The position numbers and the translations under genes were made by a program. Shown piece by piece: positions 9,330 through 63,656 of a stretch of 64,000 bases of DNA; within the stretch, counting starts at the first letter, position 1, and each line of letters begins with the position of its first letter. The stretch is from Deltaproteobacteria bacterium GWA2_45_12. Lineage in GTDB: Bacteria; UBA10199. The DNA lies in assembly GCA_001797365.1 (NCBI GenBank), contig MGPH01000011.1, forward strand, positions 20,402-84,401. The letters run 5' to 3'. The notes beneath the pieces are model-generated. The model did no database searches and was not told where the DNA came from. It saw only the letters and a program-made list of their open reading frames with translations.

Positions 9330-9520
9330 GGCTAGAAAAAACCCCACCATAAGTCGTGAGAAGCTTATCTTGAACCTTAACTAATTAAGGTGGAACCCGT
9401 TATTACCTCTTTAGGCTTCCTCACAAGGAGGCATGCTCACCAAGGTAAGAGATGGACCCCGTTTTGTCATTGTAAGTTCAAAAAATAATGACGTTCACCA
9501 CGAACCAGGCAGGGTTTGTT
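9330..9520 (-). ncRNA. ssrS: putative 6S RNA (ssrS)
   Basis: ~190-nt non-coding gap between zapA stop (9527) and ygfA start (9318) on the same strand. This is the conserved zapA-ssrS-ygfA synteny. On the minus strand the gap ends in GGTGGGGTTTTTT. Secondary structure not verified. Confidence 0.45.
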
Positions 9521-10710: not shown

Positions 10711-10738
10711 GTAAGGGCAATTCATGAATTGCCCTTAC
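10711..10738. repeat. REP family B: perfect 28-bp palindrome GTAAGGGCAATTCATGAATTGCCCTTAC
   Basis: Identical or near-identical copies at 14697-14724, 37419-37446, 39707-39748 (1.5 copies), 57553-57580, and variant 32400-32427. All sit in short spacers between genes. Confidence 0.9.
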
Positions 10739-14681: not shown

Positions 14682-14720
14682 GACGGACCTGTCCCGGTAA
14701 GGGCAATTCATGAATTGCCC

Positions 14721-15818
14721 CTACGATTCCTGAAATATTTTCACATTCTCCAATTCCTTGGCCAAGCTTGGATCTTTCTCTTTTAGCTTGTTCCATTTAA
14801 CTTTGGCTTGAGCCCATTGCTTCTGGTCAAAATCAACAAGGATTTGATTATAGAGACCCCGAGCCTCTTCCGAATTAAGGGTGCTTACTTTCGCATAAGC
14901 ATTCTCCGCTTTTTCGTATTGCTTTAAATTACGATATAAATTGCCTTCGATCAGCCACAAATCACTTGAATCCCTTACCGCTCTTGCCTTATTTATCCAA
15001 AATAAGGCCCCGTTGGTATCATTGTTTTTGGCATAGACCATGGCTAGCTGCTTCATGAGCAATTCATTGTATCCCCCCATCTCCAAGGCTTTGCGGTAAG
15101 ACTCACTGGCTTCCACCAACAATCCCATTTTTTCATAACAAAAACCCAAATTATGCAGGACAAAAACATTCTCCTGTCCCATGGCACGCATTTTTTTATA
15201 AACTTCGATCGCTTGGGGATAATGGTGAAGATCGCGATACACGTTCCCCAAAAGCCCCAACACTTGCAGATTTGTGGGAGCATGCGCTATCCATTGGGCA
15301 AGATAATTCAAGGCCTGATCGTTCTTCCCTGCTTCCCTGGCCAAAATTGTTTTGGATTTAAGAGAATCAAGAGTTTCTTCAATTTTTATTTCAAAGCGGC
15401 GGCTTAATTCAGGTTGTGAAATAAGTTTTTTGGACCAGTCGGCATAATCACTTCTTAATCCTATCACATGAATCACTTCCCCTTGGGGGCCCTTGTTTTC
15501 AAAAACAACCCGATGGATAGTCAAAGCGGGAAACAAAATTCCTTCAGCCTCAAAAACCATTTTTCTTAAATCTTCTTCGGAAATCAAAGAGTCCTGCAAA
15601 ATTATTTTTGCTTCAAGCGGGAATAATTCAAAAACAAAGAGCCGGAACAATTTTGCTGCAAGATCCGTTTTTATTTTTTCATCGGATACCGTTTGAGGAG
15701 TTTCTTTTATCGGCTCTGCCTGTTTTTGATGTGTGTTTTGAGCTTCATCAAACCACCAATCTTGGAGACGGGCACACCCACAAAACCAAACAAAAAAAAG
15801 GATCCAAAACCATTTCAT
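14721..15818 (-). CDS. TPR-repeat lipoprotein
   Basis: Start at MKWFWILFFVWFCGCA (lipobox-like). Multiple TPR-like helices (AL.YL.QWIA, LG.VY..L..Y..A...Y). Confidence 0.6.
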   Translation of the reverse strand: MKWFWILFFVWFCGCARLQDWWFDEAQNTHQKQAEPIKETPQTVSDEKIKTDLAAKLFRLFVFELFPLEAKIILQDSLISEEDLRKMVFEAEGILFPALTIHRVVFENKGPQGEVIHVIGLRSDYADWSKKLISQPELSRRFEIKIEETLDSLKSKTILAREAGKNDQALNYLAQWIAHAPTNLQVLGLLGNVYRDLHHYPQAIEVYKKMRAMGQENVFVLHNLGFCYEKMGLLVEASESYRKALEMGGYNELLMKQLAMVYAKNNDTNGALFWINKARAVRDSSDLWLIEGNLYRNLKQYEKAENAYAKVSTLNSEEARGLYNQILVDFDQKQWAQAKVKWNKLKEKDPSLAKELENVKIFQES

Positions 15819-32297: not shown

Positions 32298-32437
32298 AAA
32301 AAGTTATGAGTTATGGGTTATGCGTTATGAGACCAACTATTAAGAAAAAAGTCATATCCCATCTTAAGGTCCGCAATCAAGGGTGTTTTAAGTTTTGTTG
32401 TAAGGGCGGTTCATGAACCGCCCTTACAAAATAAGTT

Positions 32438-37402: not shown

Positions 37403-37493
37403 AAGTTATCCTGTTTTTGTAAGGGCAATTCATGAATTGCCCTTACTGGATATGGTGAATGCAAAAGGGACACCTTGACGACACGTCAAGCCA

Positions 37494-38059: not shown

Positions 38060-39689
<1,630 letters not shown>

Positions 39690-39768
39690 GGTAATTTTGC
39701 CTTTGCGTAAGGGCAATTCATGAATTGCCCTTACTGAATTGCCCTTACATAAGGACATTCTCAATCCC

Positions 39769-40635
39769 TCACGAAGCATCCGCAGTGGGTTCTACAGTTG
39801 CTGAAAAACTATCAACCTGAGCTCCGCCCTCAAAAGAATCTTTTTTGGCGACATAGGCCTTGCCGGTTCCTTCAACCACCGTTGAACGGCGACGCTTGCC
39901 CTCCGGCTTTTTGGAATCGGTATCGTTACCGGCCTTCAAAGCCATGGCTTCACGTTTTTCCAGGCCACTCAAACACGCATCAGCTGCTTTGGTAATAAAC
40001 ACCTGAATACTGCGCTGAGCATCATCATTGGCGGGAATAACATGGTCAATGGGGTCGGGATTGCAATTGGTATCCGTGATGGCAATGACAGAAATCCCCA
40101 GAATATTGGCTTCATGAACGGGAATTTTTTCTACATGGGGGTCAACAACAAAAATGGCTCCGGGTAAACCGTTCATTTTTTTGATACCGCTTAAAACTTC
40201 CTGCAGTTTTGCTATTTCACGGTCAAAACCCAAACGTTCTTTTTTGGTGTATCCCGTGAAATCATTTTTTTCACGACGTGTTTCCAGTTCAATAAGACGT
40301 TCAACACTGTGACGAATGGTGGAAAAATTGGTCAACATGCCACCCAGCCAGCGTTTGGTCACAAAGGGCATTTTGGCACGAATGGCTTCCTGTTCAACAA
40401 TGCCCTGAGCTTGGGCTTTGGTTCCGACAAACAAGACATCCCGGCCTTCAGAAACAATTTTTTCAAGGGCATTGAATGCTTTTTGAGCCAGCCCTTGGGT
40501 TTGCTGCAAATCAATAATATGGATCCCCGAACGCACACCATAAATATAAGGTTTCATTTTGGGGTTCCAACGACGTGTTTGATGCCCAAAATGGCAACCG
40601 GCATCCAACATTTCTTCAATCAAGATATCAGACAT
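39769..40635 (-). CDS. rpsB: 30S ribosomal protein S2
   Basis: MLDAGCHFGHQTRRWNPKM canonical S2 N-terminus with an acidic/basic C-terminal extension. Confidence 0.9.
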   Translation of the reverse strand: MSDILIEEMLDAGCHFGHQTRRWNPKMKPYIYGVRSGIHIIDLQQTQGLAQKAFNALEKIVSEGRDVLFVGTKAQAQGIVEQEAIRAKMPFVTKRWLGGMLTNFSTIRHSVERLIELETRREKNDFTGYTKKERLGFDREIAKLQEVLSGIKKMNGLPGAIFVVDPHVEKIPVHEANILGISVIAITDTNCNPDPIDHVIPANDDAQRSIQVFITKAADACLSGLEKREAMALKAGNDTDSKKPEGKRRRSTVVEGTGKAYVAKKDSFEGGAQVDSFSATVEPTADAS

Positions 40636-48884: not shown

Positions 48885-50963
48885 TCAATGTTTCTCCCGA
48901 ATATCCCCCCTGGCAAAAATGGAGGCAACATAGTTAAGCACATCGGTGGCACAAATATCGCAATACCCGTAATTCTTGGTTAAGCGGGCCTTGACCACGT
49001 CAATTTTTTCCTGGGTATCTTTATCAACCACTGAACTGACAAGGCTTGTCAGTTTAATGGTGTCTTTTTGATCTTCAAAAAGTTTCAATTCGAGTGCTTT
49101 GTGCAAACGCTCATTGGTGCGGTAATCAAATTTTTTCCCTTCCAGTGAAAGGGCTCCGATGTAGTTCATAATTTCCCGACGAAAATCGTCCTTTCGCGAT
49201 TCAGGAATATCGATTTTTTCTTCAATGGCGCGCATCAGGCGTTCATCGGGCTCTTCATCCTGCCCCGTATATTTGTTACGCACCCTTTCTTTTTGGGTAT
49301 AGGCCTTGATGTTGTCGACATAATTGGAACACAGCCTTGAAATGGCGTCTTCATCGGCTGCAATAGCACGCTGAACCTCGTTTTTAACGATGTCCTCATA
49401 TTCTTCCTTCACCACCGTCAGCAATTCAATATAGCGTTTCTTCTGTTCATCACTGTTAATCAGCGAATGATGCCTTAACCCTGATTCCAGCTCGTTAATC
49501 ACCATGAAAGGATTGACACACCCTTCTCCCAATTCACTGACCAGCGCATTTGAAATTTTATCCTGAACATAGCGCGGTGAAATGCCTTCCATTCCCTCAC
49601 GTTTGGCTTCTTTACGCAGCTCCTTGACATTGTCTTCGGTAAAACCAGGAAGGGTTTTGCCTTGGTATAATTTCAGTTTTTGCATCAGGGTGAGATTGGC
49701 TTTTTTGGGTTCTTCCAGACGGGTGAGCACCGCCCACATGGAGGCCATTTCAATGGTGTGAGGGGCAATGTGCTTCCCTTTAATTTTGTCGACACTGTAG
49801 TCCTTGTAGTAAATTTTCTGTTCTTCCCCGAGTTTGGTGATGTAGGGCACATCAATTTTAACGGTACGATCCCGAAGGGCTTCCATGTATTCGTTGTTTT
49901 GTAGGCGACGGTATTCGGGTTCGTTTGTGTGTCCGATAATCACCTCGTCAATATCGGTTTGTGCAAATTTTTTGGGTTTGATTTTATGTTCCTGGCTGGC
50001 CCCCAACAAATCGTACAAAAAGGCCACATCCAGTTTAAGCACTTCAATAAATTCAATGATGCCGCGGTTGGCCACATTGAATTCGCCATCAAAATTGAAA
50101 GCACGAGGATCCGATTCTGAACCGTATTCGGCAATCTTCCGATAATTGATATCCCCCGTGAGTTCGGTTGAATCCTGGTTTTTCTCGTCTTTGGGTTGGA
50201 ATGTTCCAATACCAATTCGATCCTGTTCGGAAAGATGGAGTCTTTTGACTTCAATATGCTTAATAAGCTTATCCCAATCCCCTTCGTAAAGATCAAAAAG
50301 GGAGTTATAGATAAAACGGCAGGCAGGGCAAAGCTGGCCTTCGATGACAATTCTTTCATCCAGTCCAAGATGCTTGTTGGCTTCCATCAACAATTTTTTT
50401 CGGGCGGCCATAGGAACAAGGCGCAGGGGATCTTCGTGCATGGGGCAGGGAAGACGGTCCGCACTTCCAAAAATGTTTGCCAAACCCTTGTTGTTTTCAT
50501 CCCCCTTCATCCACGTAAAAGTATAAAGAGCGCCCTCCGGTGTACGCGAATAAGTTTCCAATCCCTTTTTTAAGAGGCGCGCAATCGTCGATTTTGAACT
50601 GCCCACCGGTCCGTGCAACAAAAGCACACGCTTTTCCGTCCCATAGTGCTTGGAGGCCGCCTTAAAAACATTCACCAATTTCATCAAATGAATATCCAGA
50701 CCAAAAATGGCATCACGCCCCTGTTCATAGGGATCTTCAAAAAACTTGAAATGAACGATCTTTTTTTTGTGTTCCTTGTATTCTTCGGTGCCGTGGGAAA
50801 GGATCATGTCGTAAACACGCTGGAACGCATTACGTGACACTTTGGGATTTTTTCGGAATATCTCCAGATATTCCTGAAAACTTCCCTTCCAGTTTAGTTC
50901 CTTGAAGTTTTTTATTTCGTCAGAATCTTTGATCCATTTGACTAAGTCTTCGGTACCCATCAT
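48885..50963 (-). CDS. prkA: PrkA-family serine protein kinase (AAA-like)
   Basis: 692 aa. Walker [13 protein letters not shown] and a PrkA C-terminal domain. Confidence 0.85.
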
Positions 50964-51168
50964 GGTATCCTCCCCTTTTAAAATTTATTGGATGTTTTAA
51001 GGCTCGTGAAGTTATGAAAGAGCTTGTTATTTAAAGGCCTTACCAATCTTTAACCTGCTTTAAGAATTGTAGCAGCTATCCTTAATGGCTGGCAACGTTT
51101 AAGTCTTAAAAAAATTATGTGAAATTTGACGCAACAGGCCAAGGCTGTGACGCAAGGAAATTTTTGGA

Positions 51169-51954
51169 TTATTCCTTTTTATTTTCGATAAGTTTTTCTT
51201 CTTTAGTGCCCAAAGTATAACGAATGACCGCCTTCACAAGCTTGTTGCGATTGGCTTTCCCCAAAAGGGTTTTGATGTCATTAAACACGCTGGCATCGTT
51301 GACAAGCGCCCCGAGTGTGCCCTCGCCCCGATTGATTTTCCCCAAAATTTCACCAAAATCCTTGCTGGCCACATTGAGGTTTTGGGAAAGCTCGTCAACA
51401 TCATCAACAATTTTTTCCCCTTTGGGGTCATAAATGATTTCATGGACCAGACCTTTCCCCGTTTCTATTTCTTTAAGAATGGAATTGACCCTTACTAAAG
51501 TTTCATCCCCTTTTTGAACCACTTTGCCAAAATCAACGGGTTTGAGTGTGGGAATAAATTCTCCTTCCTTAAGCGCCGGCTTTTCTGGATTCCCCATGGT
51601 AATAAGAACCACCTTGTCCCCCAACAACCCTTGAGTCACCGTGTTAGCCATTGAATCCTGGCGGATACGGTCCTGATATCTTTTACTGATCATTAATTTT
51701 AAAGTGATTTTATTAACAGCTGCGTCAGGATTGACTTCAATATTGGCCACCGAACCCACAATAATGCCGGCCAAAGAAACCTGGGCCCCCGACCTGATGC
51801 CGCTAATGTCTTCAAACTGGCAGTAGAGATAATATTGGGGATCAAAAAGTTTTTTTTCTCCCCCCAACATGAACATGATCACCATAAAAAGCAGAAGCCC
51901 CATCCCCACAAAGGCCCCTACCTGTAACTGAACCATTTCTCTTGACTGTTTCAT
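51169..51954 (-). CDS. mlaD: MCE-domain protein MlaD
   Basis: N-terminal TM segment followed by an MCE domain. Downstream of mlaF-mlaE. Confidence 0.75.
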   Translation of the reverse strand: MKQSREMVQLQVGAFVGMGLLLFMVIMFMLGGEKKLFDPQYYLYCQFEDISGIRSGAQVSLAGIIVGSVANIEVNPDAAVNKITLKLMISKRYQDRIRQDSMANTVTQGLLGDKVVLITMGNPEKPALKEGEFIPTLKPVDFGKVVQKGDETLVRVNSILKEIETGKGLVHEIIYDPKGEKIVDDVDELSQNLNVASKDFGEILGKINRGEGTLGALVNDASVFNDIKTLLGKANRNKLVKAVIRYTLGTKEEKLIENKKE

Positions 51955-52688
51955 TCGCCAATTTCCCCAAGAATAAAATTTTGAACCAAAGAATTTGTGG
52001 AATGTTTTACTTCCCCAACCGTCCCAATAAATTCAATTTTTTTATTATGCAACAAAGCCATGCGATTGGAAATCTTAAAAGCAAACTCCATGTCATGGCT
52101 TACCACAACCGAGGTCACTTTTAAAACCTCTTGCAAATGGGTGATAAGCTCGCCAATCCGGTTGGTATTGGCAGGGTCCAAACCCGCTGTGGGCTCATCA
52201 TACAAGACGACCTCGGGATCCGTTGCAATGGCCCGGGCCAATCCCACCCTTTTTTTCATCCCCCCCGACAATTCGGAGGGATACAAATCTTCAATTCCAT
52301 CCAACCCCACCAATTCCAACTTGATTTTAACAATTTGGGTTATTTTTTCTTCCGGATAATCAAAATGTTCCCTGATCGGATAGGCCACATTTTCATAAAC
52401 ACTTAAGGAATCAAACAGGGCGGCGCCCTGAAACAACATTCCAACCGAAGACCTCATCTTCATGAGTTCTTCGTCCTGCATCTGGGTGACATCTACCCCT
52501 TTAAAAAGCACATGCCCGGAATCCGGTTCCATCAAACCCAAAAGAAGTTTTAAGGTAAGACTTTTCCCCGTGCCACTCCCTCCGATAATGGTGAGAGTTT
52601 CACCGGGTTTGACTGATAGATTGAGATTTTTCAAAACCTCCTTTTTGCCAAACCTTTTTGAAACATCTTTAAATTCGATCAACGCCAT
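51951..52688 (-). CDS. mlaF: ABC transporter ATP-binding protein MlaF
   Basis: Walker A GGSGTGKS, signature LSGGMKKR, Walker B VVLYDEP. Confidence 0.8.
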   Translation of the reverse strand: MALIEFKDVSKRFGKKEVLKNLNLSVKPGETLTIIGGSGTGKSLTLKLLLGLMEPDSGHVLFKGVDVTQMQDEELMKMRSSVGMLFQGAALFDSLSVYENVAYPIREHFDYPEEKITQIVKIKLELVGLDGIEDLYPSELSGGMKKRVGLARAIATDPEVVLYDEPTAGLDPANTNRIGELITHLQEVLKVTSVVVSHDMEFAFKISNRMALLHNKKIEFIGTVGEVKHSTNSLVQNFILGEIGE

Positions 52689-52710
52689 GAATATTTCCCC
52701 GTGGCCTTCG

Positions 52711-53550
52711 TTATTCCTGCAAAATCAAAATAAGGAATTTGGTTAAAAAATAATCCGCAACAAACACGGCCAAAGCCGAAATAACCACGGAGCGTGTTGT
52801 TGATTGCCCCACTTCCTGGGTGCCTCGAGTCGTTGACAAACCCTGAAAGCAGGCAATACCCCCAATCAAAAAACCAAAAACAAATGTCTTGAGCAGCCCA
52901 TTGAAAAAATCATCGAAACCCACTGTCTTTAATACTTGATCCAAATAAAAACTGGGCCCCACCCCTGCCTCAAGAAACGAAACAATCATTCCTCCAAAAA
53001 TGCCCACAACATCGGCAATAATGGTGAGTAACGGGGTGATAAGGGTGGTCACCAAAATACGGGGCAAGACAAGCTTGATAATCGGGTTTGCCCCCATGGC
53101 CTGAATGGCCATCACCTGTTCTGAAACAGCCATCGATCCAAGCTCTGCCGCAATGCCGGACCCCACTCTTGCGGCAATCATGATGGCTGTAAGCACCGGC
53201 CCCAACTCACGTACAATGGCAATCCCCACCACCTGGCCGGTGTATAGCTCAATCCCAAATCTTCTTAACCCCACAATGAATTGCAACGCCAGCACCATAC
53301 CCGTAAAAAGGGCCACAATATTGGTCAGAGCCAGCGACTTGACTCCCAACTGACTCATCTGGTCTAACACCGACCGCCATTCAATCTTTCCCCTTAAGGC
53401 CAAGAGGCAGGCCTGGTAGGACAGCATGGCCACTCCACCGATGTAATTCATGTAGACCATCACCGTTTTCCCAATGCCCTGAAAAAAACGGGCGGCCCTT
53501 TTTTCAAAAAGGGCCGATGTCTCAGGGATAGAATGTGGGAGTTGATCCAT
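52711..53550 (-). CDS. mlaE: ABC transporter permease MlaE
   Basis: 279 aa polytopic permease of the MlaE/YrbE family. Confidence 0.8.
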   Translation of the reverse strand: MDQLPHSIPETSALFEKRAARFFQGIGKTVMVYMNYIGGVAMLSYQACLLALRGKIEWRSVLDQMSQLGVKSLALTNIVALFTGMVLALQFIVGLRRFGIELYTGQVVGIAIVRELGPVLTAIMIAARVGSGIAAELGSMAVSEQVMAIQAMGANPIIKLVLPRILVTTLITPLLTIIADVVGIFGGMIVSFLEAGVGPSFYLDQVLKTVGFDDFFNGLLKTFVFGFLIGGIACFQGLSTTRGTQEVGQSTTRSVVISALAVFVADYFLTKFLILILQE

Positions 53551-54781: not shown

Positions 54782-54795
54782 GTTATGAGTTATGA
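54761..54795. repeat. tandem heptanucleotide repeat (GTTATGA)x5 spanning maf stop and next-gene start
   Basis: Five perfect direct copies read directly from the sequence. Encodes MSYEL-*-MSYEN across the gene junction. Confidence 0.9.
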
Positions 54796-55711
54796 GAATA
54801 TGAAAAAATTCATCAAGATAAAAGAATTCTTACGCAAGCTTTATCAAAAAAAAGGGATTCGGTTTGCCATTTATTCACTGATGATTCTGGGGATTCCCTT
54901 TGCCGGGGCCTATGCTCATTTTGTTGAACCCCGCCGCATTAGCATTACCAAACTTAGAATTCCCATCAAAAAACTTCCCAAACCGTTTCATCGGTTCAAG
55001 ATCATCCAGATTAGCGATCTTCATTTTGGCCCTACCAACAAATCCATTTCATTCCTTGAAAAATGCATCCGCAAAATGAATGAACTAAAACCCGATATTG
55101 TGGCCATGACGGGGGATTTTATGCAGTGGGATTCACACCACGCCAAACCCCTGGCCCAGATTCTTTCAAAAATAAAATCCACCTTCGGGCTGTTTGCCAT
55201 TTTGGGAAACCACGACTATGGCGTGTGCCACAAAGGGCATCCAGCCACAGACCCCGTCAATCACAAGGAAGTCATTGACGCCTTTGAGGCCCATAAAATT
55301 CAGGTGTTGCATAATAAAAAAATCATCCTGGAAAAAGATGGCCACAAAATAAATGTGGCGGGGCTGGGAGATTTTTGGACGGAACATTTCAAGCCGGCCG
55401 ATGTCTTGAAAAAGAAACACGAACAAGATCATCCCACCATTTTACTTTCACATAATCCGGACAGCATTGACGAACTGAAAGATTATTTTTTTGATTTGAT
55501 GCTTTCAGGCCATGTGCACGGGGGACAAATCAATTTTCCCTTCATCGGCCCGCTGACTGTTCCTGTAAAACACCGGCATTTGCGCCGCGGCTTGCACCAT
55601 GTGCACAACCGCTGGATTTACACCAACCGCGGCCTGGGCCACATCTTTAAAGCGCGGTTCAATTCCCTCCCTGAAATCACCTGCATGGAATTGGTGGAGA
55701 GTACGGGCTAA
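54785..55711 (+). CDS. calcineurin-like metallophosphoesterase (YkuE-like) membrane-anchored
   Basis: N-terminal TM segment, then DLHFG, GDF..W, GNHD, and GHVHGGQ phosphoesterase motifs. Confidence 0.7.
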
Positions 55712-56089
55712 AACCTTATGAGAGCTAACCACAGTGCGGAGACGGACAAAGGCTCTCACAATTTCAGTACTTAGCTTAATGGCTCGTGGGCTCCGAAGAA
55801 CCGCTGATAACATCGCGATACCTTGTTCGGTAAAAGCGTAAGGATGAGCGCGACGCAAACCTCCCCAACTTGAAGTCACAATCTGTGACTTCAAGATTTC
55901 AAACTCTTCATTAGTAAGTTGAAACATAAAGTCGGAAGGGAATCGTTCAATATTCCGTTTAACAGCTTGTACGAGTACTTTTGGCTCTACCTGATAGAGA
56001 TCCGCCAAATGCACACTCAACATAACTTTTTGTCCCCGAATGAGATAAATATGACTTTCAATTCGCTCGGATGGAATAACTTGGTTCAT
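55505..56089 (-). CDS. ORF6N/KilA-N-like DNA-binding domain protein (probably truncated)
   Basis: N-terminal 125 aa match the ORF6N pattern ([39 protein letters not shown]...L.SQ......[25 protein letters not shown]). The C-terminal 69 aa overlap the convergent phosphoesterase gene and look like read-through. Confidence 0.5.
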
Positions 56090-56669
56090 GAACTTATTCT
56101 ATGCAATTGTAAGGCCATTTTTTAGACTTGAATTTTAAGGAGAAAAATAGAGTGCTTTAAAAAAACCGTCCAATTTTCGGACTATGCACGACCGAAATTC
56201 AGATGGTGGATGTGAACTTTTGAGAAACCTAATTATTTAAGGAATCGGCCCACCCCAAATGAGGGTACCCGCTCTTAATCTTTCATTCATACGCTCTGTC
56301 GCTTGTCCCATGCGGGCCAAGTAGGGAGCTTCTCCTGCTTCAAAGATTCTATGTTCTTCGAGGAAAAGCGAAAAGCGAGCCCGTTCCCACAAGGGAACAA
56401 AACCTTCGTTTTCAACCTCATTCAAATTGCAAGACAAGCCCATACCCCTTACATAGCGGGCATACCTTAGACTCCAACATGATTTCCATTCTTCGCTGAA
56501 GGGTGGAAATTATCGGGGGAGGGGCTCTAGCCCCTCCCCCACCTCCTTTAAGAAAGGGAAAAATGAATCGCAGAATATCTACTTATCATCCAGCTTGTTT
56601 ATGTTAATAAAATCAACCGGTTAAGGTAATTATTTTAAAGCCTTTTTTAAGGCAACTTTTAGGGGGTTT

Positions 56670-57515
56670 ATGCCGAAAATACTTAACGTGAATTTAGGTG
56701 ATACCATTAATATCTTCCAATATTTGGATTATCGACTCTTTCTAAAAGATTGGTTTGATTTGATTAAAAAGAAAAGGCCCCATTTTTCTTACCGCAGCTT
56801 TTCAAGGCTGGCTGGTTTTCGTTCCCCCGGCATGCTTCAACGGGTTATCGATGGGGAACGAAATCTGGCCGATGAAAGTGTGACTAAATGCATTGGCGCC
56901 CTAAAGCTTAATTTTCAGGAGGCCGATTATTTTAAAAACCTGGTCAACTATTCCAGGGCTGAAAACAGCGAGGAGAAAAATTTCCATTATCAAAAACTTC
57001 TTCTTTCCCAAAAATACAATCTTCTCAAACCCGTCAAAGAGTCAAAATACAGTTTTTATTCGGCATGGTACCATCCCATTGTGCGGGAATTAGTCATCGC
57101 CAAGGATTTTGATGGAACCCCTGCCTGGATTGCCAAACGCATCAAACCCAACATCAGTGTGGCCGATGTTGAAAACTCACTTCACATTCTGGAGCGTTTG
57201 GGCTTTATTGCCAAAATCGGCAAGAACAAGTGGAAACAAACCTTTCCACTCACAACAACGGGCTCGGATGTCCAATCGCTTCTCATTCATGAATATCATC
57301 GCAACCTCTTGCTGATTACCCGGGAAGTGATGTCTAAAATTGATCTTGAAAAAAGGGATATCAGTACACTTGTTTTGGGAATTCAAAAAAGTGAGGTTTC
57401 CAAACTCAAGGAAAAAATCCGCGAGTTTAGGAAAGAAATATTAAAACTGGTGGCCAATGAAGCCCCCACCGAAGAAGTATATTTGATGAATATCCAACTT
57501 CTTCCAGTGACGTAG
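56670..57515 (+). CDS. TIGR02147/DUF4423-like protein (putative HTH regulator)
   Basis: 281 aa. Recalled family pattern: Y..FLKDWF...KKK.P.FSYR.F...AGF.SP..L..VI.G.RNL......K...ALKLN..EADYF.NLV. Confidence 0.55.
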   Translation: MPKILNVNLGDTINIFQYLDYRLFLKDWFDLIKKKRPHFSYRSFSRLAGFRSPGMLQRVIDGERNLADESVTKCIGALKLNFQEADYFKNLVNYSRAENSEEKNFHYQKLLLSQKYNLLKPVKESKYSFYSAWYHPIVRELVIAKDFDGTPAWIAKRIKPNISVADVENSLHILERLGFIAKIGKNKWKQTFPLTTTGSDVQSLLIHEYHRNLLLITREVMSKIDLEKRDISTLVLGIQKSEVSKLKEKIREFRKEILKLVANEAPTEEVYLMNIQLLPVT

Positions 57516-57618
57516 GGAAAAATTTGATGGTTTGACCAAGGCTCATCTCCATGTAAGGGCAATTCATGAATTGCCCTTACAAAAAGGACATACTTAAGCC
57601 AGGTCGAAGGTACCTTTT

Positions 57619-58347
57619 ATGAAAACAATTTTAAATATACTCAATGTGTTTTTCTTCCTGTTCATCCTTGCCTCGTGCGGTGGAGGAGGCGGCAGCAAAT
57701 CAAGGGCCAATTTTGGCGGCTCTGAAATCGGGAACGCCCTTGTCATCGGCCATGTTGCTGGCAATGATTGTGAAGTCGAAACCATCTTTGTCTGGGATGA
57801 AGTGGATCTTTTGGCTTTTAGCCCCGATGATAACTGCAACTTCAGCTTGGATGTCCCCGCAAACAAGGTTTATACGCTTGTCTTTAAATTTAAGGATGGA
57901 AGTGAATCTCCTTTACGTGTTCAAAATGACCAGAACATGCCCCAAACCTATTCCTTCTTTGTGGGAGATGAAGGCATTAGCATCAATTTGGGTGAAGTTG
58001 CCCGCGAAAATCAGGGGGGGCCCCAAGCCTTGATCATGCAATTCCTAGGTGGTGGTGTCGATCTTATCCCTGAAAACCAGCCGGCCAAACAAACCGATAT
58101 TGACAAAGATGGAACTGTTGACTTCTTTGATGCCGATGATGACGGCGATGGTCTTGAGGACAAGTCTGACAACTGCCCCTTCGTTTCAAACGCCGATCAA
58201 AAAGATTCTGATCATGATGGTCAGGGGGATGTTTGTGACAACAATCTGGATTTTTCTGAATGTGAGGTTGAAAACCCGCCCACCCATCAGGTCTGCGACC
58301 CAGACACCAACAAGTGCCTTGATTTTTGCGACTTGAAATATTTGTAA
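57619..58347 (+). CDS. lipoprotein with thrombospondin type-3 (Ca-binding) repeats
   Basis: Lipobox LFILASCGGGGG, followed by DKDGTVDFFDADDDGDGLEDKSDNCPFVSNADQKDSDHDGQGDVCDNN (D.D.DG..D..DNCP...N..Q.D.D pattern). Cys-rich C-terminus. Confidence 0.65.
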   Translation: MKTILNILNVFFFLFILASCGGGGGSKSRANFGGSEIGNALVIGHVAGNDCEVETIFVWDEVDLLAFSPDDNCNFSLDVPANKVYTLVFKFKDGSESPLRVQNDQNMPQTYSFFVGDEGISINLGEVARENQGGPQALIMQFLGGGVDLIPENQPAKQTDIDKDGTVDFFDADDDGDGLEDKSDNCPFVSNADQKDSDHDGQGDVCDNNLDFSECEVENPPTHQVCDPDTNKCLDFCDLKYL

Positions 58348-58428
58348 AAAAATAAAAAACAACTTTGGCAGGATTAAAACCGATAAATCCCCTGTAAGGG
58401 GACATGAGGGACATTCAGAAATAATGCC

Positions 58429-61400
58429 ATGCGTCAAAATAAAACTTTAATCCTTCATAGCTTTTTAATCTTGTTTCTCGTTTTTCCTTTCCTTGCTTCA
58501 TCGCAAACTCATCACCCTCATCCTCAAGAAAGAAAAACCATTTCGGATTCACGAAAAGATTCTGCACGACACAAAAAACCTGACAGGGCAAACAAAATCA
58601 CTCCATCCAAGGAACAAAAATATATTTCAAAACCAGAAAGAAGAGGAAAAGTTCCAAAACCAGGAAAAACCTTCACTCCCAAACCCGACAAACCACACAA
58701 ACCAAGATATCGTCCGGTTTGGTATACCCAAATCAAAAACAAACTTCTTGAACTTGCAAGAAAGCGTCATACCCCAAGAATCAAGGGGATAGAAAAAGTT
58801 TGGGTATCTCTCCCTTCTCAAGCAGATTTCACATGCCCCGTGGGCCCACCACAAATCGAATTCCAGGAAGGCTACACAACACCCGAGGAACAACAAAGAA
58901 TCACCTCTTTTTTAACAAGCGCTGAAGATTCATTGCGCCTGATAAACCCCAATATTCTCTGCAATTTCGATGGATGGGTGATTGAAGACATCCGGGCCAC
59001 ACGGGGAATCGCGGGTTATTATGACGGGCATTATGCTTATGTGGACAAAACCCTCCATGCTTGGGCCCATGAATTGAGCCACTACATATCGCATGACACG
59101 CCCATGGATCTTCCTGAATATCAGGAGGGAATTCGGGAAAGGGAAGAATGGAGGCAAGAAGCGCTAGCCAGGGGGGACGACCCTGAAATTGTCGATCTTA
59201 CTGTCGATATCAATACAAACCACTACTTGCTGGGAAAAGATTATCTTTGTTGGATCAACCCGGATAGACCCGAGGACTGCATTGCCATCGTTACTGAGTA
59301 TTATCGCGACCGACTCAACGAACAGTTTGCAGAAGCTCTTAGCAAGGTCATATCAAATCCTTTGGGAGGAATTCTTAAACATTCTGGTAACGAGTCCACC
59401 TGTCAAATGGCTCAATGGTTTGCCCGGATCCTTCTTAATGACCCCGAAAGCAATCTGGTAGCGCCCTTCACTTTTCAAATCGACGCTCCCCATGACCTGT
59501 ATGTATCTGGAGAAAACGTGAGTGTGGAAGAAGAGAATGCTTCGCAAAAACGCTTTCATCCGCTAAGCCAGGGCGCCTTTGCCTTAACCTCTAGGGAATC
59601 CTTGATTATCCACATCCCTCAAGAGGGTCTCCAGCCTTGGAGACAAGTGAGCCTTCCCCTTCCCCAAGATTTCAATTACGGAGCCGAAGCAATCCGAACA
59701 ACCAGTGACCCAACAACACTCTTCGCCTCCGATTACACGGGAATTTGGGCAGAAACATCTAAAAACTATTGGTACCGCAACGTTGCCGATTATGATGGGG
59801 ATTGGTTCCTCTTCCATCAAAAGTCAGCAGGAGATGGCGGAAGTTTTTTCCGTCGCCTTCGCGTCAATGCTGCAGAACCAACCTGGCAGGACATCGCCAC
59901 GGGATCGTTATTTGATGATGAAGGCTTTACGAGTTTCATCGATGGAAGGATCAGCTTTTTAACGCAAGAGGGGTATTGGATTCATTCCGGTGATTTTTCA
60001 AACCAGCCCATTGTATCGGAAAACAATCTCATCCCTTACCCGCAATTTATCCGGGAACAGATTCAAAACTCAAAAAAAATGGAGATCGTCCATGCAGAAG
60101 GCAGGAACAGAACTTATTTATGGATCGACGGCATTCCCAATTACCCACGGGGCTTCATTTCGCGCTTATTTGAAATGAGCATTAACAATGAGAATCATAT
60201 CTATTTCAGACAAGTCTTTGAAATTCCCACGACACACACGACATCCCGGCCTTTTTTATATGATGATGATTGGCATGTCTTTGAAATGATCGTGAATGGG
60301 CGCCAATATAGTTGGCCCCCTGACGAAGGGAACTATGAGTTCCCGACTTACGACCGGGTTCTTATCAAAATTAATCGTGACGGCTCTTTCACCCCCCATC
60401 CCCTGATTTATGATTCACACCTTGACCGGATGAAAGGTATGCTCCATTGCAATCAGTCCAGCCTCCATGTTTCGGGTGGAAGGGTGGTCTGCCAGAGACA
60501 ATGGGCTGGGCCAAGATCCATCTTTGGGGCCTTGGCGGCGTTTGAATTTGATGAGCCGGTGGGGGATTTTCCCGAAGTGAGTTTACAACCCATTATCGAA
60601 CTTCAGTCCTCCCAATTGGAGGGTGAGGGGCCAGGATATGTTTATGAATTGCAAGCCCAGATGTATGATCCCTATGAGCGGGTGATTCTCAACTCAGAGA
60701 TCGGGGAAGATGGGGAGATCATCGTTTCTTGGATATTTCCCGATGGGACAATCTTGGAGCAAAGGAGAAATAAAGATCACGCCAATCAACGTTATGATTA
60801 CGACTTAGGCACCATCCGGCACCGATTTTCAGAGCTAGGGGACAACCCTTTTAGGATCCGCGTTCAAGATGGAAATCGCACCCGGTCTTTTGAAATCCCC
60901 TATTTCATCAGCATTTCGGATTTCGACAACCACACGGAAATCCTTGAGGCTTCAGTCCCGCCCACGGTGCGCCAAGGAGAAGCTTTCAACATTGTCTTCA
61001 GCGCAGAAAACCGCCTCCGCATACCTCTCCAATTCGTCATTAGATTTGGCGGCAATGGCCAGGAAGTTCTGACGGAACTCATTCCTTATGAAACCTATTC
61101 TCGTGGAGTAGAAGTGACTCACACCTATGGCTACGGCATTTTTGTGGGAGAAAAAAGTATACGGATACAAACTGAAAACGTGCCCGTAGTTCCCTATGAT
61201 ATGGAAACGGAGTTGGTTTTTGCAAACGCTCCTCCTCAAATCTCACACTTGCGTTTTGTGGGGAATAATCTCGAACCCGGGCAGCCCATCCAGTTCTATG
61301 CCGATGTGACCGACCCCAACCAATTGCCTTCCTGGGATCCCAATTATGATGTCACTCCCCCCGATCCCCTTACCTACCAATGGATTTTCAGTGATGGAGT

Positions 61401-61581
61401 CATCGTTGATAACGTCCAAGAGGCCCAAATCATCCACACCTTCTATGAAGATGGCGGTGAAGGCCCCATGGAGGTAACCCTTGTCGTCACCGATAGCCAT
61501 GGCGCCGAAGTTCAAGCCAGCCTCGAGGTCACTCCCGCAAACAGGGCTCTTGGAATCAGGGTGGAAGAGATTCCATTTTAA
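58429..61581 (+). CDS. large secreted hypothetical protein (1050 aa) with Lys/Pro-rich N-terminal region, HExxH motif and C-terminal PKD-like domain
   Basis: Signal peptide MRQNKTLILHSFLILFLVFPFLASS, KP-rich repeats (PKPGKTFTPKPDKPHKPRYRP), and HELSHYISHD. The C-terminal YQWIFSDG...HTFYEDGGEGPMEVTLVVTDSHG fits the PKD signature. Confidence 0.65.
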   Translation: MRQNKTLILHSFLILFLVFPFLASSQTHHPHPQERKTISDSRKDSARHKKPDRANKITPSKEQKYISKPERRGKVPKPGKTFTPKPDKPHKPRYRPVWYTQIKNKLLELARKRHTPRIKGIEKVWVSLPSQADFTCPVGPPQIEFQEGYTTPEEQQRITSFLTSAEDSLRLINPNILCNFDGWVIEDIRATRGIAGYYDGHYAYVDKTLHAWAHELSHYISHDTPMDLPEYQEGIREREEWRQEALARGDDPEIVDLTVDINTNHYLLGKDYLCWINPDRPEDCIAIVTEYYRDRLNEQFAEALSKVISNPLGGILKHSGNESTCQMAQWFARILLNDPESNLVAPFTFQIDAPHDLYVSGENVSVEEENASQKRFHPLSQGAFALTSRESLIIHIPQEGLQPWRQVSLPLPQDFNYGAEAIRTTSDPTTLFASDYTGIWAETSKNYWYRNVADYDGDWFLFHQKSAGDGGSFFRRLRVNAAEPTWQDIATGSLFDDEGFTSFIDGRISFLTQEGYWIHSGDFSNQPIVSENNLIPYPQFIREQIQNSKKMEIVHAEGRNRTYLWIDGIPNYPRGFISRLFEMSINNENHIYFRQVFEIPTTHTTSRPFLYDDDWHVFEMIVNGRQYSWPPDEGNYEFPTYDRVLIKINRDGSFTPHPLIYDSHLDRMKGMLHCNQSSLHVSGGRVVCQRQWAGPRSIFGALAAFEFDEPVGDFPEVSLQPIIELQSSQLEGEGPGYVYELQAQMYDPYERVILNSEIGEDGEIIVSWIFPDGTILEQRRNKDHANQRYDYDLGTIRHRFSELGDNPFRIRVQDGNRTRSFEIPYFISISDFDNHTEILEASVPPTVRQGEAFNIVFSAENRLRIPLQFVIRFGGNGQEVLTELIPYETYSRGVEVTHTYGYGIFVGEKSIRIQTENVPVVPYDMETELVFANAPPQISHLRFVGNNLEPGQPIQFYADVTDPNQLPSWDPNYDVTPPDPLTYQWIFSDGVIVDNVQEAQIIHTFYEDGGEGPMEVTLVVTDSHGAEVQASLEVTPANRALGIRVEEIPF

Positions 61582-61632: not shown

Positions 61633-63228
61633 TCAAACAACCGGTCCCGCTTTACGGATTTCTTCTGCCACTCCATCAGCGTATTGCTTGAAATTATCGT
61701 GGAACAACTGGGCCAAATGCTTGGCTTTGGCATCATAGGCCGCTTTGTCAGCCCATGTGTTTTTTGGATTTAAAATAGTGGGAGAAGAAATGCCCGGACA
61801 TTGGCTAGGCACTTCCAACCCGAAGAAGGGATCTTTCTGGAAGGAAACTTCCATAAGCTGCCCACTTAAGGCTGCCTTAATGATGGCGCGGGAATCGGCG
61901 ATGGACACGCGTTTGCCGACGCCATAAGGGCCGCCGCTCCAACCTGTATTGACCAACCAGCAATTGACTTTGTGCTTGGCAATTTTTTCACCCAATAATT
62001 TTGCATAGACTCCCGGATGAAGCGCCATGAAAGGGCCTCCAAAACAGGGGCTAAAGGTGGCCTGGGGTTCTTTAATGCCGCGTTCTGTCCCGGCCACTTT
62101 GGCCGTGTATCCTGAAAGAAAATGATACATGGCTTGCGCTGAAGTCAGGCGAGCTACAGGGGGAAGTACGCCAAAGGCATCACAGGTGAGCATGATCACA
62201 TTTTTAGGGTGCCCGCCGGTTCCACTTTCAACCGTGTTCGGAATGAAACCGATGGGATAAGAAGCCCGTGTATTTTCAGTGAGGGCCTCACTATCAAGAT
62301 CAATCTTGCGTGTGGCTTGGTCAAAGACAACGTTTTCGAGCACGGTGCCAAAACGCTGCGTGGTCGCATAAATTTCGGGTTCAGCGGATTTTGATAATTT
62401 GATCACCTTGGCATAACAACCGCCTTCAAAATTAAACACCCCATTGTCGCTCCATCCATGCTCGTCATCTCCGATCAGATTACGTTCGGGGTCGGCTGAC
62501 AAGGTTGTTTTCCCTGTGCCGGACAAACCAAAGAACACGGCGGCATCGCCACGAGGGCCAATATTGGCCGAGCAATGCATGGACATCACCCCTTTTTGGG
62601 GAAGCAAATAATTCAAAAGAGTGAAAATGGATTTTTTGGTTTCACCCGCATAATTGGTTCCCCCAATCAAAATGATTTTTTTGCCAAAATTGGGAAGGAT
62701 AAAAGCCTCGGAATTGGTGCCATCAACGGCTGGATCGGCCTTAAAATTGGGAACATTGATGAGAATATATTCCGGCTTGTGATTTTTGAGTTGGTCTTTG
62801 TCTTTTATAGGCACAAACATGTTTTGTGCAAAAAGACTGTGCCAGGCAAATTCAGTGATGACACGGATGGGCACACGAAACTGGGGGTCACAACCGGCAT
62901 AGCAGTCTTGAACAAAAACATCTTTCCCCTGCAGATACTGTAAAACCTTGGCATAAAGGGCATCAAATTGGGCAGGCTCGATGGATTTATTGACCTTCCC
63001 CCACCACACTTTGGAGGAGGGTTCTTTAACGATGAATTTGTCGTTGGGGGAACGTCCGGTGTATTTTCCGGTATGAACAATGAAAGGGCCATCAGCAGCA
63101 ATAAAGCCTTCGTTACGGCACACAGCTTCTTCATAAAGCCTGGGGGCGCTTAAATCCCAGTAAATCTTCCGGGTCCCTTTGATCCCATTATCTTCAAGAG
63201 AGAACTTTTTAGCTTGGTCTGTAGACAT
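61633..63228 (-). CDS. pckA: phosphoenolpyruvate carboxykinase (ATP)
   Basis: 531 aa. GLSGTGKTTLS kinase-1a motif and overall PckA collinearity. Confidence 0.9.
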   Translation of the reverse strand: MSTDQAKKFSLEDNGIKGTRKIYWDLSAPRLYEEAVCRNEGFIAADGPFIVHTGKYTGRSPNDKFIVKEPSSKVWWGKVNKSIEPAQFDALYAKVLQYLQGKDVFVQDCYAGCDPQFRVPIRVITEFAWHSLFAQNMFVPIKDKDQLKNHKPEYILINVPNFKADPAVDGTNSEAFILPNFGKKIILIGGTNYAGETKKSIFTLLNYLLPQKGVMSMHCSANIGPRGDAAVFFGLSGTGKTTLSADPERNLIGDDEHGWSDNGVFNFEGGCYAKVIKLSKSAEPEIYATTQRFGTVLENVVFDQATRKIDLDSEALTENTRASYPIGFIPNTVESGTGGHPKNVIMLTCDAFGVLPPVARLTSAQAMYHFLSGYTAKVAGTERGIKEPQATFSPCFGGPFMALHPGVYAKLLGEKIAKHKVNCWLVNTGWSGGPYGVGKRVSIADSRAIIKAALSGQLMEVSFQKDPFFGLEVPSQCPGISSPTILNPKNTWADKAAYDAKAKHLAQLFHDNFKQYADGVAEEIRKAGPVV

Positions 63229-63579: not shown

Positions 63580-63656
63580 GCGCCCGTAGCTCATTTGGAT
63601 AGAGCATCGCCCTTCTAAGGCGAGGGTAGCAGGTTCGAGTCCTGCCGGGCGCACCA
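63580..63656 (+). tRNA. tRNA-Arg (anticodon TCT), CCA encoded
   Basis: Manual cloverleaf: acceptor GCGCCCG/CGGGCGC, D-arm GCTC..GAGC, anticodon stem TCGCC/GGCGA with loop CTTCTAA (TCT), T-arm GCAGG-TTCGAGT-CCTGC, then discriminator A plus CCA. Confidence 0.8.

What the first reader, a model, noticed from the sequence alone, without database searches (positions are those of the whole stretch)
56670..61581. TIGR02147-like regulator followed by a thrombospondin-type-3 lipoprotein and a 1050-aa secreted HExxH/PKD protein
These are three co-directional non-housekeeping genes between an ORF6N remnant and pckA. The 1050-aa protein has a signal peptide, a Lys/Pro-rich spacer (KPxKP repeats), a central region with HELSH (a possible zincin active site), and a C-terminal PKD domain. 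The lipoprotein carries Ca-binding TSP3 repeats. Together with a paralog-family regulator this looks like a secreted hydrolase or adhesin module of unknown specificity.
Basis: partly seen in the sequence, partly recalled or inferred. Interest (0 to 1): 0.55.

Follow-up and report, generated by a model that had tools for sequence, protein, structure and literature searches.

The report
Exported zinc-protease-like orphan protein
The three genes are real, and the large one is an exported protein from a small, undescribed family that looks like a zinc protease joined to a beta-propeller; however, the three genes are not a conserved unit, so this is a modest novelty rather than a new system.

Summary

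Residues ~141-720 of the large protein match no Pfam, NCBIfam or PDB sequence. A full HMMER scan of 1.84 billion representatives found 17 distant relatives (26-35% identity, mostly 550-680 aa). Among the 15 aligned relatives that keep the motif, only ten columns are invariant. Five of them are the gluzincin signature: H214, E215, H218 (HExxH) and E298, A301 (ExxA).

A Cys at HExCH covaries with a Cys at ExxAxxC (10/10 versus 1/6). The AlphaFold2 model (pTM 0.81) orders its elements like a zincin: strand, backing helix, three strands, HExxH helix, glutamate helix. A beta-propeller follows.

It is most likely an exported zinc metallopeptidase of an undescribed family, substrate unknown. No relative has a DUF4423 or TSP3 neighbour, so the "module" reading is not supported. 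The hairpin between genes 1 and 2 is a genome-wide REP-like repeat, not a local operator. Interest is modest.

The parts
56670..57515 (+). Gene 1: TIGR02147-family protein (281 aa) with a C-terminal DUF4423 domain. Function unknown; DNA binding is only suspected.
   Evidence: The weak MarR/FabT-like match to residues 142-213 has E 0.44 and is not significant.
57552..57581 (.). Perfect 30-nt palindrome TGTAAGGGCAATTCATGAATTGCCCTTACA in the gene 1-gene 2 gap. It is one copy of a genome-wide REP-like repeat, with no T-run on either side.
   Evidence: Five copies occur in the window, plus one variant with compensatory changes in both arms.
57619..58347 (+). Gene 2: predicted lipoprotein (242 aa, lipobox Cys20). 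It has an N-terminal beta-rich domain of unknown family, TSP type-3 Ca-binding repeats and a Cys-rich tail.
58087..58257 (+). Thrombospondin type-3 repeats (residues 157-213 of gene 2), with three DxDxDG motifs at residues 160, 171 and 196.
58429..61581 (+). Gene 3: 1050-aa exported multidomain protein (GenBank OGP10406.1 / HBF11809.1, annotated 'hypothetical protein').
58429..58503 (+). Sec-type signal peptide (residues 1-25). It has no lipobox Cys.
   Evidence: Sequence inspection.
58507..58818 (+). Basic Lys/Arg/Pro-rich linker (residues 27-130), predicted disordered. It takes the place of the hydrophobic anchor segment seen in relatives.
58849..59436 (+). Zincin-like (gluzincin-type) domain, residues ~141-336. 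Order of elements: strand, backing helix 152-172, three strands, active-site helix 212-223, a lineage-specific ~28-aa insert, glutamate helix 296-305.
59068..59082 (+). HELSH (H214, E215, H218): proposed zinc ligands and catalytic base.
59320..59331 (+). EQFA (E298...A301): the ExxA motif, with E298 as proposed third zinc ligand.
   Evidence: The motif definition comes from PMC6414381.
59497..60552 (+). Beta-propeller domain (residues ~357-708), about 5-6 blades.
60601..61263 (+). Beta-rich, probably Ig-like region (residues ~725-945). It is absent from the 550-680-aa relatives and has no Pfam match.
61264..61530 (+). PKD domain (residues ~946-1034).

Best explanation
Gene 3 encodes a Sec-exported, zinc-dependent metallopeptidase of the gluzincin type. 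It belongs to a small family that is not in Pfam, NCBIfam or the PDB.

Proposed mechanism (inferred): H214 and H218 on the active-site helix and E298 on a following 'glutamate helix' hold the zinc, and E215 acts as the general base. The beta-propeller (~357-708) and the Ig-like/PKD tail (~725-1034) would bind substrate or a surface.

Most relatives carry an N-terminal hydrophobic or lipobox anchor. This protein instead has a cleavable signal peptide and a ~100-residue basic Lys/Pro-rich spacer, plus an extra Ig/PKD tail.

Genes 1 and 2 are neighbours and may share a transcript with gene 3, but they are not conserved partners of this family.

Shown: motif conservation, Cys covariation, the order of predicted secondary-structure elements, the propeller fold, and the lack of conserved context. 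Inferred: zinc binding, peptidase activity, location and substrate.
For: 1. Relatives. Seventeen 50%-identity clusters match residues ~141-720 only, at E 9e-28 to 5e-4.

2. Invariant residues. In the 15-sequence N-domain alignment the only invariant residues are F145, R170, G182, H214, E215, H218, C274, C284, E298 and A301. That is HExxH plus ExxA plus a Cys pair. The gluzincin clan is defined by HExxH with a downstream ExxA that supplies the Glu ligand (PMC6414381).

3. Spacing. HExxH to ExxA is 52-62 residues in 13 of 15 relatives. In the four E. coli M48 proteases it is 59 (H130 to E189).

4. Covariation. Cys at position 4 of HExCH goes with Cys at ExxAxxC in 10/10 cases, against 1/6 when position 4 is Gly or Ser (Fisher p = 0.0014, uncorrected for phylogeny). 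This places the two helices in contact, as in gluzincins.

5. Structure model. AlphaFold2 with the family alignment gives pLDDT 75.3 and pTM 0.81, with pLDDT 87-96 over model residues 11-90. The order is strand, long helix, three strands, HExxH helix, further helices, ExxA helix, then about 23 strands.

6. Propeller. Foldseek matches beta-propellers: phytase, CyRPA, Seh1 and GH43, at E 5e-5 to 1e-3.

7. Sub-threshold hits. Many of the weak matches are metallopeptidases, though unrelated families appear in the same lists (DUF6446, an ECF sigma factor, a flavodoxin): YgjP-like E 0.047, metzin_BF0631 E 0.096, phrog_87 'metallo-protease' E 0.11 and phrog_4415 'peptidase' E 0.0056, and a BFVD IrrE-N-like fold at E 0.055.

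8. Shared tail. The same Ig/PKD tail (query 824-1047) occurs on P0022, which has a Reprolysin_5 M12 domain.

9. Extracytoplasmic features: a signal peptide and invariant Cys pairs.
Against: - No significant match to any known peptidase family by sequence or profile.
- hhalign against E. coli M48 proteases and SprT gives only ~5% probability and aligns little beyond HExxH.
- The alignment is shallow (16 sequences, Neff ~4). Parts of the model between the two motif helices have pLDDT 43-63.
- One relative (P0026) has lost HExxH, so non-catalytic members exist.
- There is no biochemical, expression or localisation data.
Confidence: 0.6

Rival explanations
1. One reading: the three genes form one regulated module. 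The TIGR02147 protein controls an operon whose lipoprotein and large protein act together as a secreted hydrolase or adhesin system.
For: - The genes are co-directional, with gaps of 103 and 81 nt.
- The simple scan found no canonical intrinsic terminator and no sigma-70-like promoter in either gap on the + strand.
- Two assemblies and a short ENA contig of the same population keep the same order.
Against: - None of the six contexts of relatives has a DUF4423 or TSP3 gene nearby.
- The lipoprotein upstream of the L006/L007 homologue is unrelated.
- The lipoprotein and the large protein have almost no close relatives in 5.8 billion proteins, so co-occurrence cannot be shown.
- The palindrome between genes 1 and 2 is a genome-wide repeat, not a local operator.
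- A DNA-binding role for TIGR02147 is unproven.
Confidence: 0.15
2. The zincin-like domain is not a peptidase. It is either a zinc hydrolase for a non-peptide substrate (glycan, lipid or cell-wall amide), or a non-catalytic binding scaffold, which would make the protein mainly an adhesin built from a propeller and Ig/PKD domains.
For: - Propeller, Ig-like and PKD domains are typical binding modules.
- One relative (P0026) has lost HExxH but keeps the rest.
- In L006 the homologue sits next to a GH113-like lipoprotein.
- No peptidase family is matched significantly.
Against: - HExxH and ExxA are invariant in 15 of 16 members at a mean column identity of ~26-35%. That pattern argues for selection on catalysis and metal binding rather than on a scaffold.
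- By established knowledge, the HExxH plus Glu arrangement is overwhelmingly a peptidase signature.
- The GH113 neighbour is seen in one lineage only.
Confidence: 0.2
3. HELSH is a chance motif, and the protein is a lineage-specific surface protein with no enzymatic site.
For: One HExxH is expected 0.085 times per protein of this size and composition, so the motif alone is weak evidence.
Against: - The motif is conserved in relatives of 22-35% identity.
- The ExxA and the covarying Cys pair are conserved with it.
- It lies on a confidently predicted helix.
Confidence: 0.03

Closest known systems
Gluzincin clan of zincin metallopeptidases, especially the M48/M56-like 'minigluzincin' type (HtpX, BepA, LoiP, YcaL; PDB 3C37-like lipoproteins)
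   Same: - HExxH on an active-site helix.
- A downstream ExxA, often ExxA[D/N], with invariant Glu and Ala.
- A spacing of 52-62 residues, against 59 in E. coli M48.
- A predicted order of strand, backing helix, strands, active-site helix, glutamate helix.
- An extracytoplasmic, envelope-anchored location in most members.
   Different: - No detectable sequence or profile homology (Pfam M48 silent; hhalign probability ~5%).
- An extra invariant Cys pair (C274/C284).
- A C-terminal beta-propeller that is not part of M48.
- This protein adds a ~28-residue insert between the two motif helices, a Lys/Pro-rich linker and an Ig/PKD tail.
Matrix metalloproteinases (M10A): zincin catalytic domain followed by a hemopexin beta-propeller
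   Same: The overall logic of a zinc protease domain followed by a beta-propeller, which would serve as a substrate- or partner-binding exosite.
   Different: - MMPs are metzincins (HExxHxxGxxH plus a Met-turn). Here the third-ligand position of that motif is not conserved.
- Hemopexin is a 4-bladed propeller, whereas the model resembles 5-7-bladed propellers.
- The hemopexin sequence match is not significant (E 1.5).
Secreted bacterial metalloproteases with PKD or Ig-like tails (for example the reprolysin-like M12 protein P0022, or M9 collagenases)
   Same: A C-terminal PKD/Ig tail. P0022 shares ~34% identity with residues 824-1047.
   Different: The catalytic domain is unrelated (M12/M9 against the family described here).
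TIGR02147 / DUF4423 family (gene 1) and thrombospondin type-3 repeat proteins such as MtsC-like bacterial TSP3 proteins (gene 2)
   Same: Gene 1 is a full-length member of TIGR02147. Gene 2 carries true TSP3 calcium-binding repeats.
   Different: Neither family has an established function in this kind of organism. Gene 2 falls far below the cut-offs of the named TSP3 equivalogs (43.8 bits against 350 for MtsC), so it shares only the repeat.

Membership tests
Gluzincin clan (zincin tribe) | HExxH motif (two His zinc ligands and the catalytic Glu) | tested here: met
   HELSH at 214-218. H, E and H are invariant in 15 of 16 aligned family members.
Gluzincin clan (zincin tribe) | Downstream ExxA motif supplying the third (Glu) ligand on a 'glutamate helix' (definition in PMC6414381) | tested here: met
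   E298 and A301 are invariant. The spacing is 52-62 residues in most members and 84 here because of an insert. In the model the motif lies in helix 296-305.
Gluzincin clan (zincin tribe) | Zincin fold: an N-terminal subdomain with a beta-sheet, backing helix and active-site helix, plus a C-terminal subdomain with the glutamate helix, superposable on solved zincins | tested here: inconclusive
Gluzincin clan (zincin tribe) | Zinc binding and peptidase activity | not testable with these tools
   Needs biochemistry.
Peptidase family M48 | Significant match to the M48 profile or to M48 members | tested here: not met
   No Pfam hit even at E <= 10. hhalign against LoiP gives 5.4% probability, and against an alignment of LoiP, YcaL, BepA and HtpX 5.0%.
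Metzincins (including MMP/M10) | Extended HExxHxxGxxH/D motif with a conserved third His/Asp ligand | tested here: not met
   The family consensus is HExxH[YH][IVF][SD]x, and the residue after it varies (D, H, R, F, E). No conserved ligand sits at motif position 11.
Metzincins (including MMP/M10) | Hemopexin-type propeller (for MMPs) | tested here: not met
   The hemopexin match has E 1.5. The Foldseek best matches are 5-7-bladed propellers.
TIGR02147 (gene 1) | Score above the NCBIfam cut-off over the full length | tested here: met
   271.9 bits against a cut-off of 50, covering model positions 2-270 of 272. DUF4423 scores 138.7 bits.
Transcription regulator (gene 1) | Recognisable DNA-binding domain | tested here: inconclusive
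   No HTH family in Pfam at E <= 10. The only hint is a MarR/FabT-like match at E 0.44.
Thrombospondin type-3 repeat (gene 2) | Match to the TSP_3 profile and to solved TSP3 repeats, with DxDxDG calcium-binding motifs | tested here: met
   31.1 bits against a cut-off of 25. E 1.9e-31 to COMP 3FBY. Three DxDxDG motifs.
Bacterial lipoprotein (gene 2) | Signal peptide ending in a lipobox [LVI][ASTVI][GAS]C | tested here: met
   The sequence ...FFLFILAS-C20 has LASC at 17-20, seen by inspection. No dedicated predictor was available.
PKD domain (gene 3 tail) | Score above the Pfam gathering threshold | tested here: met
   PKD_4 scores 30.1 bits against 27, or 37.1 bits for the tail alone. PKD scores 23.2 bits against 23.5 for the whole protein and 28.6 for the tail alone.
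Conserved three-gene module | Co-occurrence of the three gene families in other genomes | tested here: not met
   Six independent contexts of gene-3 relatives lack DUF4423 and TSP3 neighbours.

The most novel reading that the evidence does not exclude
Gene 3 and its ~17 distant relatives are the founding members of an undescribed gluzincin peptidase family, at the level of a MEROPS family, with a fixed architecture of envelope anchor, zincin domain and beta-propeller. A subgroup carries a short conserved cytoplasmic motif (YxDxFxD..IPWYER) ahead of the membrane segment. That would allow a signalling or regulated-proteolysis role rather than simple degradation.
Probability: 0.4. Interest if true: 0.45.

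Novelty: new variant of a known kind. Interest (0 to 1): 0.33.

Why it matters
If confirmed, this adds a new family to the gluzincin metallopeptidases, with a catalytic-domain-plus-propeller design comparable in layout to matrix metalloproteinases. It would also give a function to a set of 'hypothetical proteins' from uncultured groundwater and sediment 'Deltaproteobacteria'. It does not open a long-standing question. The substrate, location and biological role remain unknown, and the family is small and rare.

Tried and rejected
- Word-indexed homology search. The large protein and the lipoprotein returned only themselves or the TSP3 repeat. A search with the family alignment also returned only the query's own cluster, so this tool missed relatives that the full HMMER scan found.
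- PDB sequence and profile searches for the core found nothing significant. Hemopexin at E 1.5 was rejected as noise.
- Single-sequence AlphaFold2 was useless, with pLDDT 35.
- hhalign against E. coli LoiP, SprT and an M48 alignment gave ~5% probability, so M48 or SprT membership was rejected.
- Genome scans. The 16-sequence alignment had no usable conserved stretch. The 7-sequence alignment found two loci in GTDB genomes and none in JGI metagenome contigs.
- The palindrome between genes 1 and 2 as a local operator or terminator was rejected. It is a dispersed repeat and has no T-run.
- A search for paralogues of the three genes inside the window found none.
- Literature searches for TIGR02147/DUF4423 found only a proteomics table entry for Bdellovibrio Bd3700. 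Searches for the assembly accession found nothing.
Full report
**Observation**

The ORF list shows three co-directional ORFs at exactly the stated positions: 56670-57515 (281 aa), 57619-58347 (242 aa) and 58429-61581 (1050 aa). They lie between an ORF6N ORF (55505-56089, minus strand) and pckA (61633-63228, minus strand).

- Gene 1 is a full-length TIGR02147 protein (271.9 bits, cut-off 50) with DUF4423 at residues 119-280.
- Gene 2 starts with a lipoprotein signal (…FILAS-C20-GGGGGS). Residues 157-213 carry true thrombospondin type-3 repeats: Pfam 31.1 bits, E 1.9e-31 to COMP (3FBY), and three DxDxDG motifs.
- Gene 3 has a Sec-type signal peptide and a basic linker (residues 27-130: 19 K, 11 R and 14 P of 104). 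HELSH is at 214-218, and a PKD domain at ~946-1034.

The sequence is identical to 'Deltaproteobacteria bacterium GWA2_45_12' OGP10404-10407 and to HBF11807-11810 of GCA_003501025.1. All three genes are annotated 'hypothetical protein' there.

**Is HELSH more than chance?**

Alone it is not: 0.085 HExxH motifs are expected in a protein of this size and composition. The core of the protein (residues ~141-945) matches nothing in Pfam, NCBIfam or PDB sequences, even at E <= 10. The word-indexed search of 5.8 billion proteins returned only the protein itself.

The full HMMER scan of 1.84 billion representatives found 66 hits. Most are PKD-only. Seventeen clusters match residues ~141-720 at 26-35% identity, with E from 9e-28 to 5e-4. 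Most are 550-680 aa; P0060 is 332 aa and P0046 is a 122-aa fragment.

Fifteen of them were aligned with the query. In the N-domain alignment of the 15 sequences that keep the motif, only ten residues are invariant: F145, R170, G182, H214, E215, H218, C274, C284, E298 and A301. These are HExxH, an ExxA motif and a Cys pair.

HExxH with a downstream ExxA, whose Glu is the third zinc ligand on a 'glutamate helix', defines the gluzincin clan (PMC6414381). The spacing between the two motifs is 52-62 residues in 13 of 15 relatives. It is 84 here because of a ~28-residue insert. In the four E. coli M48 proteases it is 59.

One relative, P0026, has lost HExxH.

An independent signal also links the two motifs. 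Every one of the ten sequences with Cys at the fourth position (HExCH) also has Cys six residues after the ExxA Glu. Only one of the six with Gly or Ser there does (Fisher p = 0.0014, not corrected for phylogeny). This is what a disulfide between the active-site helix and the glutamate helix would produce.

**Structure**

Single-sequence AlphaFold2 failed, with pLDDT 35. With the 16-sequence alignment, residues 131-724 gave pLDDT 75.3 and pTM 0.81, with pLDDT 87-96 over residues 141-220.

In full-protein numbering the order of elements is:

- strand 143-145
- long helix 152-172
- strands 182-185, 196-198 and 202-205
- helix 212-223, carrying HELSH
- two lower-confidence helices (the insert)
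- helix 296-305, carrying E298 and A301
- two more helices
- about 23 strands from 357 to 708

The first part has the element order of a zincin: sheet, backing helix, active-site helix, glutamate helix. The second part is a beta-propeller. Foldseek against PDB returned phytase, CyRPA, Seh1 and GH43/62/74 propellers at E 5e-5 to 1e-3.

Many of the sub-threshold sequence hits are metallopeptidases: YgjP-like at E 0.047, metzin_BF0631 at 0.096, phrog_87 'metallo-protease' at 0.11 and phrog_4415 'peptidase' at 0.0056. The same lists also hold unrelated families, and the peptidase hits are probably driven by the HExxH motif.

hhalign against LoiP, SprT and an alignment of E. coli M48 proteases gave only ~5% probability. 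I therefore do not file the family under M48. The metzincin motif is not met either, because no third ligand is conserved after HExxH.

**Architecture of the family and of this member**

All relatives have a hydrophobic segment ahead of the domain, and it usually ends in [GAS]-C, which is lipobox-like. A subgroup (P0006, P0009, P0011, P0012, P0013) has a conserved short motif before that segment, Y(W/Y)DxFxD..(I/V)PWYER. The typical member is therefore envelope-anchored with the enzyme domain outside the cytoplasm. The invariant Cys pairs fit that location.

The window's protein differs in three ways: a cleavable signal peptide followed by a ~100-residue basic Lys/Pro-rich spacer, the insert between the motif helices, and ~330 extra C-terminal residues.

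That tail is beta-rich and ends in the PKD domain. Residues 824-1047 are ~34% identical to the tail of P0022, a 918-aa protein with a Reprolysin_5 (M12) domain. The tail therefore also occurs on an unrelated secreted metalloprotease.

**Are the three genes a module?**

I looked at six independent contexts of relatives:

- L006/L007, from two GTDB MAGs labelled 'uncultured Pseudomonadota'
- L008
- the P0014 contig
- L009
- L010-L012
- L013/L014, the first from an 894-kb contig

None has a DUF4423/TIGR02147 gene or a TSP3 protein nearby, and the neighbours differ in every case. L006/L007 do have a ~200-aa lipoprotein just upstream, but it is unrelated to gene 2. Downstream they have a GH113-like lipoprotein. 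The lipoprotein of gene 2 has no relatives apart from its TSP3 repeats.

Within the window, the gaps are 103 and 81 nt. The simple scan found no canonical terminator or sigma-70-like promoter in them on the + strand. Co-transcription is therefore possible but untested.

The striking 30-nt perfect palindrome in the first gap (57552-57581; hairpin fold z = -3.5) is not a local operator. The same 28-nt core occurs at 10711, 14697 (one mismatch), 37419 and 39707, and a variant at 32399 has compensatory changes in both arms. At least five of these six sites lie in short gaps between co-directional ORFs; the 39707 copy falls inside the called 38793-39779 ORF, whose start may be miscalled. It is a REP-like dispersed element.

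Calling gene 1 a 'regulator' rests on a non-significant MarR-like match at E 0.44. Pfam finds no HTH.

**Conclusion**

The best-supported reading (confidence ~0.6) is that gene 3 encodes an exported zinc metallopeptidase of the gluzincin type. It belongs to a small undescribed family built from a zincin domain and a beta-propeller, and here it is extended by a basic spacer and an Ig/PKD tail. Its substrate is unknown.

Motif conservation, Cys covariation, predicted topology and the propeller fold are shown. Zinc binding, catalysis, localisation and any link to genes 1 and 2 are inferred or unsupported.

This is a new variant of a well-known kind of enzyme in an uncultured groundwater bacterium. 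It deserves a family description, but it would not surprise a specialist.

Noticed in passing
window 10711-10738, 14697-14724, 37419-37446, 39707-39734, 57553-57580; variant at 32399-32428: A REP-like dispersed perfect palindrome, GTAAGGGCAATTCATGAATTGCCCTTAC. At least five of the six sites lie in short gaps between co-directional ORFs; the 39707 copy falls inside a called ORF whose start may be miscalled. The 32399 copy has compensatory changes in both arms (CGGTTC/GAACCG), which points to selection on the hairpin or on dyad symmetry. The repeat was not seen in loci from other genomes.
   Followed up: partly
window 55505-56089 (-) and 54785-55711 (+): The ORF6N ORF has an intact ORF6N domain (aa 13-97, E 9e-34). 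Its last ~69 codons run antisense through the 3' end of the LpxG/YaeI-like metallophosphoesterase gene. It is probably a truncated phage-derived remnant whose reading frame continues by chance.
   Followed up: partly
window 63580-63656, and beyond in L001/L002: tRNA-Arg(TCT) lies next to pckA. In the source contig it is followed by a prophage-like island (serine recombinase, IstB-like ATPase, YqaJ exonuclease, cI/S24 repressor pair). The gene content next to the tRNA differs between the NCBI and Logan assemblies.
   Followed up: no
window 56515-56540: A unique, very G+C-rich perfect hairpin (GGGGGAGGGGCT-CT-AGCCCCTCCCCC) lies 130 nt upstream of gene 1. It has no clear T-run, and its role is unknown.
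   Followed up: partly
L019 (ENA ERZ28563591 scaffold_410353) against window 57056-58079: A short contig from the Rifle data set is identical to the window up to ~57755 and then drops to ~90% identity. It carries a GAA-to-TAA change that ends the lipoprotein at residue 151, just before the TSP3 repeats, and it continues into unrelated sequence. This is either strain-level variation or a chimeric assembly at this locus.
   Followed up: partly
relatives P0006, P0009, P0011, P0012, P0013 (N-termini): A conserved short motif, Y(W/Y)DxFxD..(I/V)PWYER, lies ahead of the hydrophobic/lipobox segment. This suggests a cytoplasmic tail with a function of its own in the anchored members of the family.
   Followed up: no
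relative P0026: This family member has replaced HExxH with AAFAKH while keeping the rest of the domain and the propeller. It is a probable pseudo-enzyme.
   Followed up: no
window 9337-9518 (-): A 6S RNA gene (Rfam RF00013, 95.2 bits).
   Followed up: no
window 48885-53550 (-), also seen in L001: Upstream housekeeping context: a PrkA kinase with DUF444, and an MlaD/MlaE/ABC lipid-transport operon, followed by Maf and the metallophosphoesterase. G+C content across the three genes (0.40-0.49) is no different from these neighbours, so there is no compositional sign of recent transfer.
   Followed up: no
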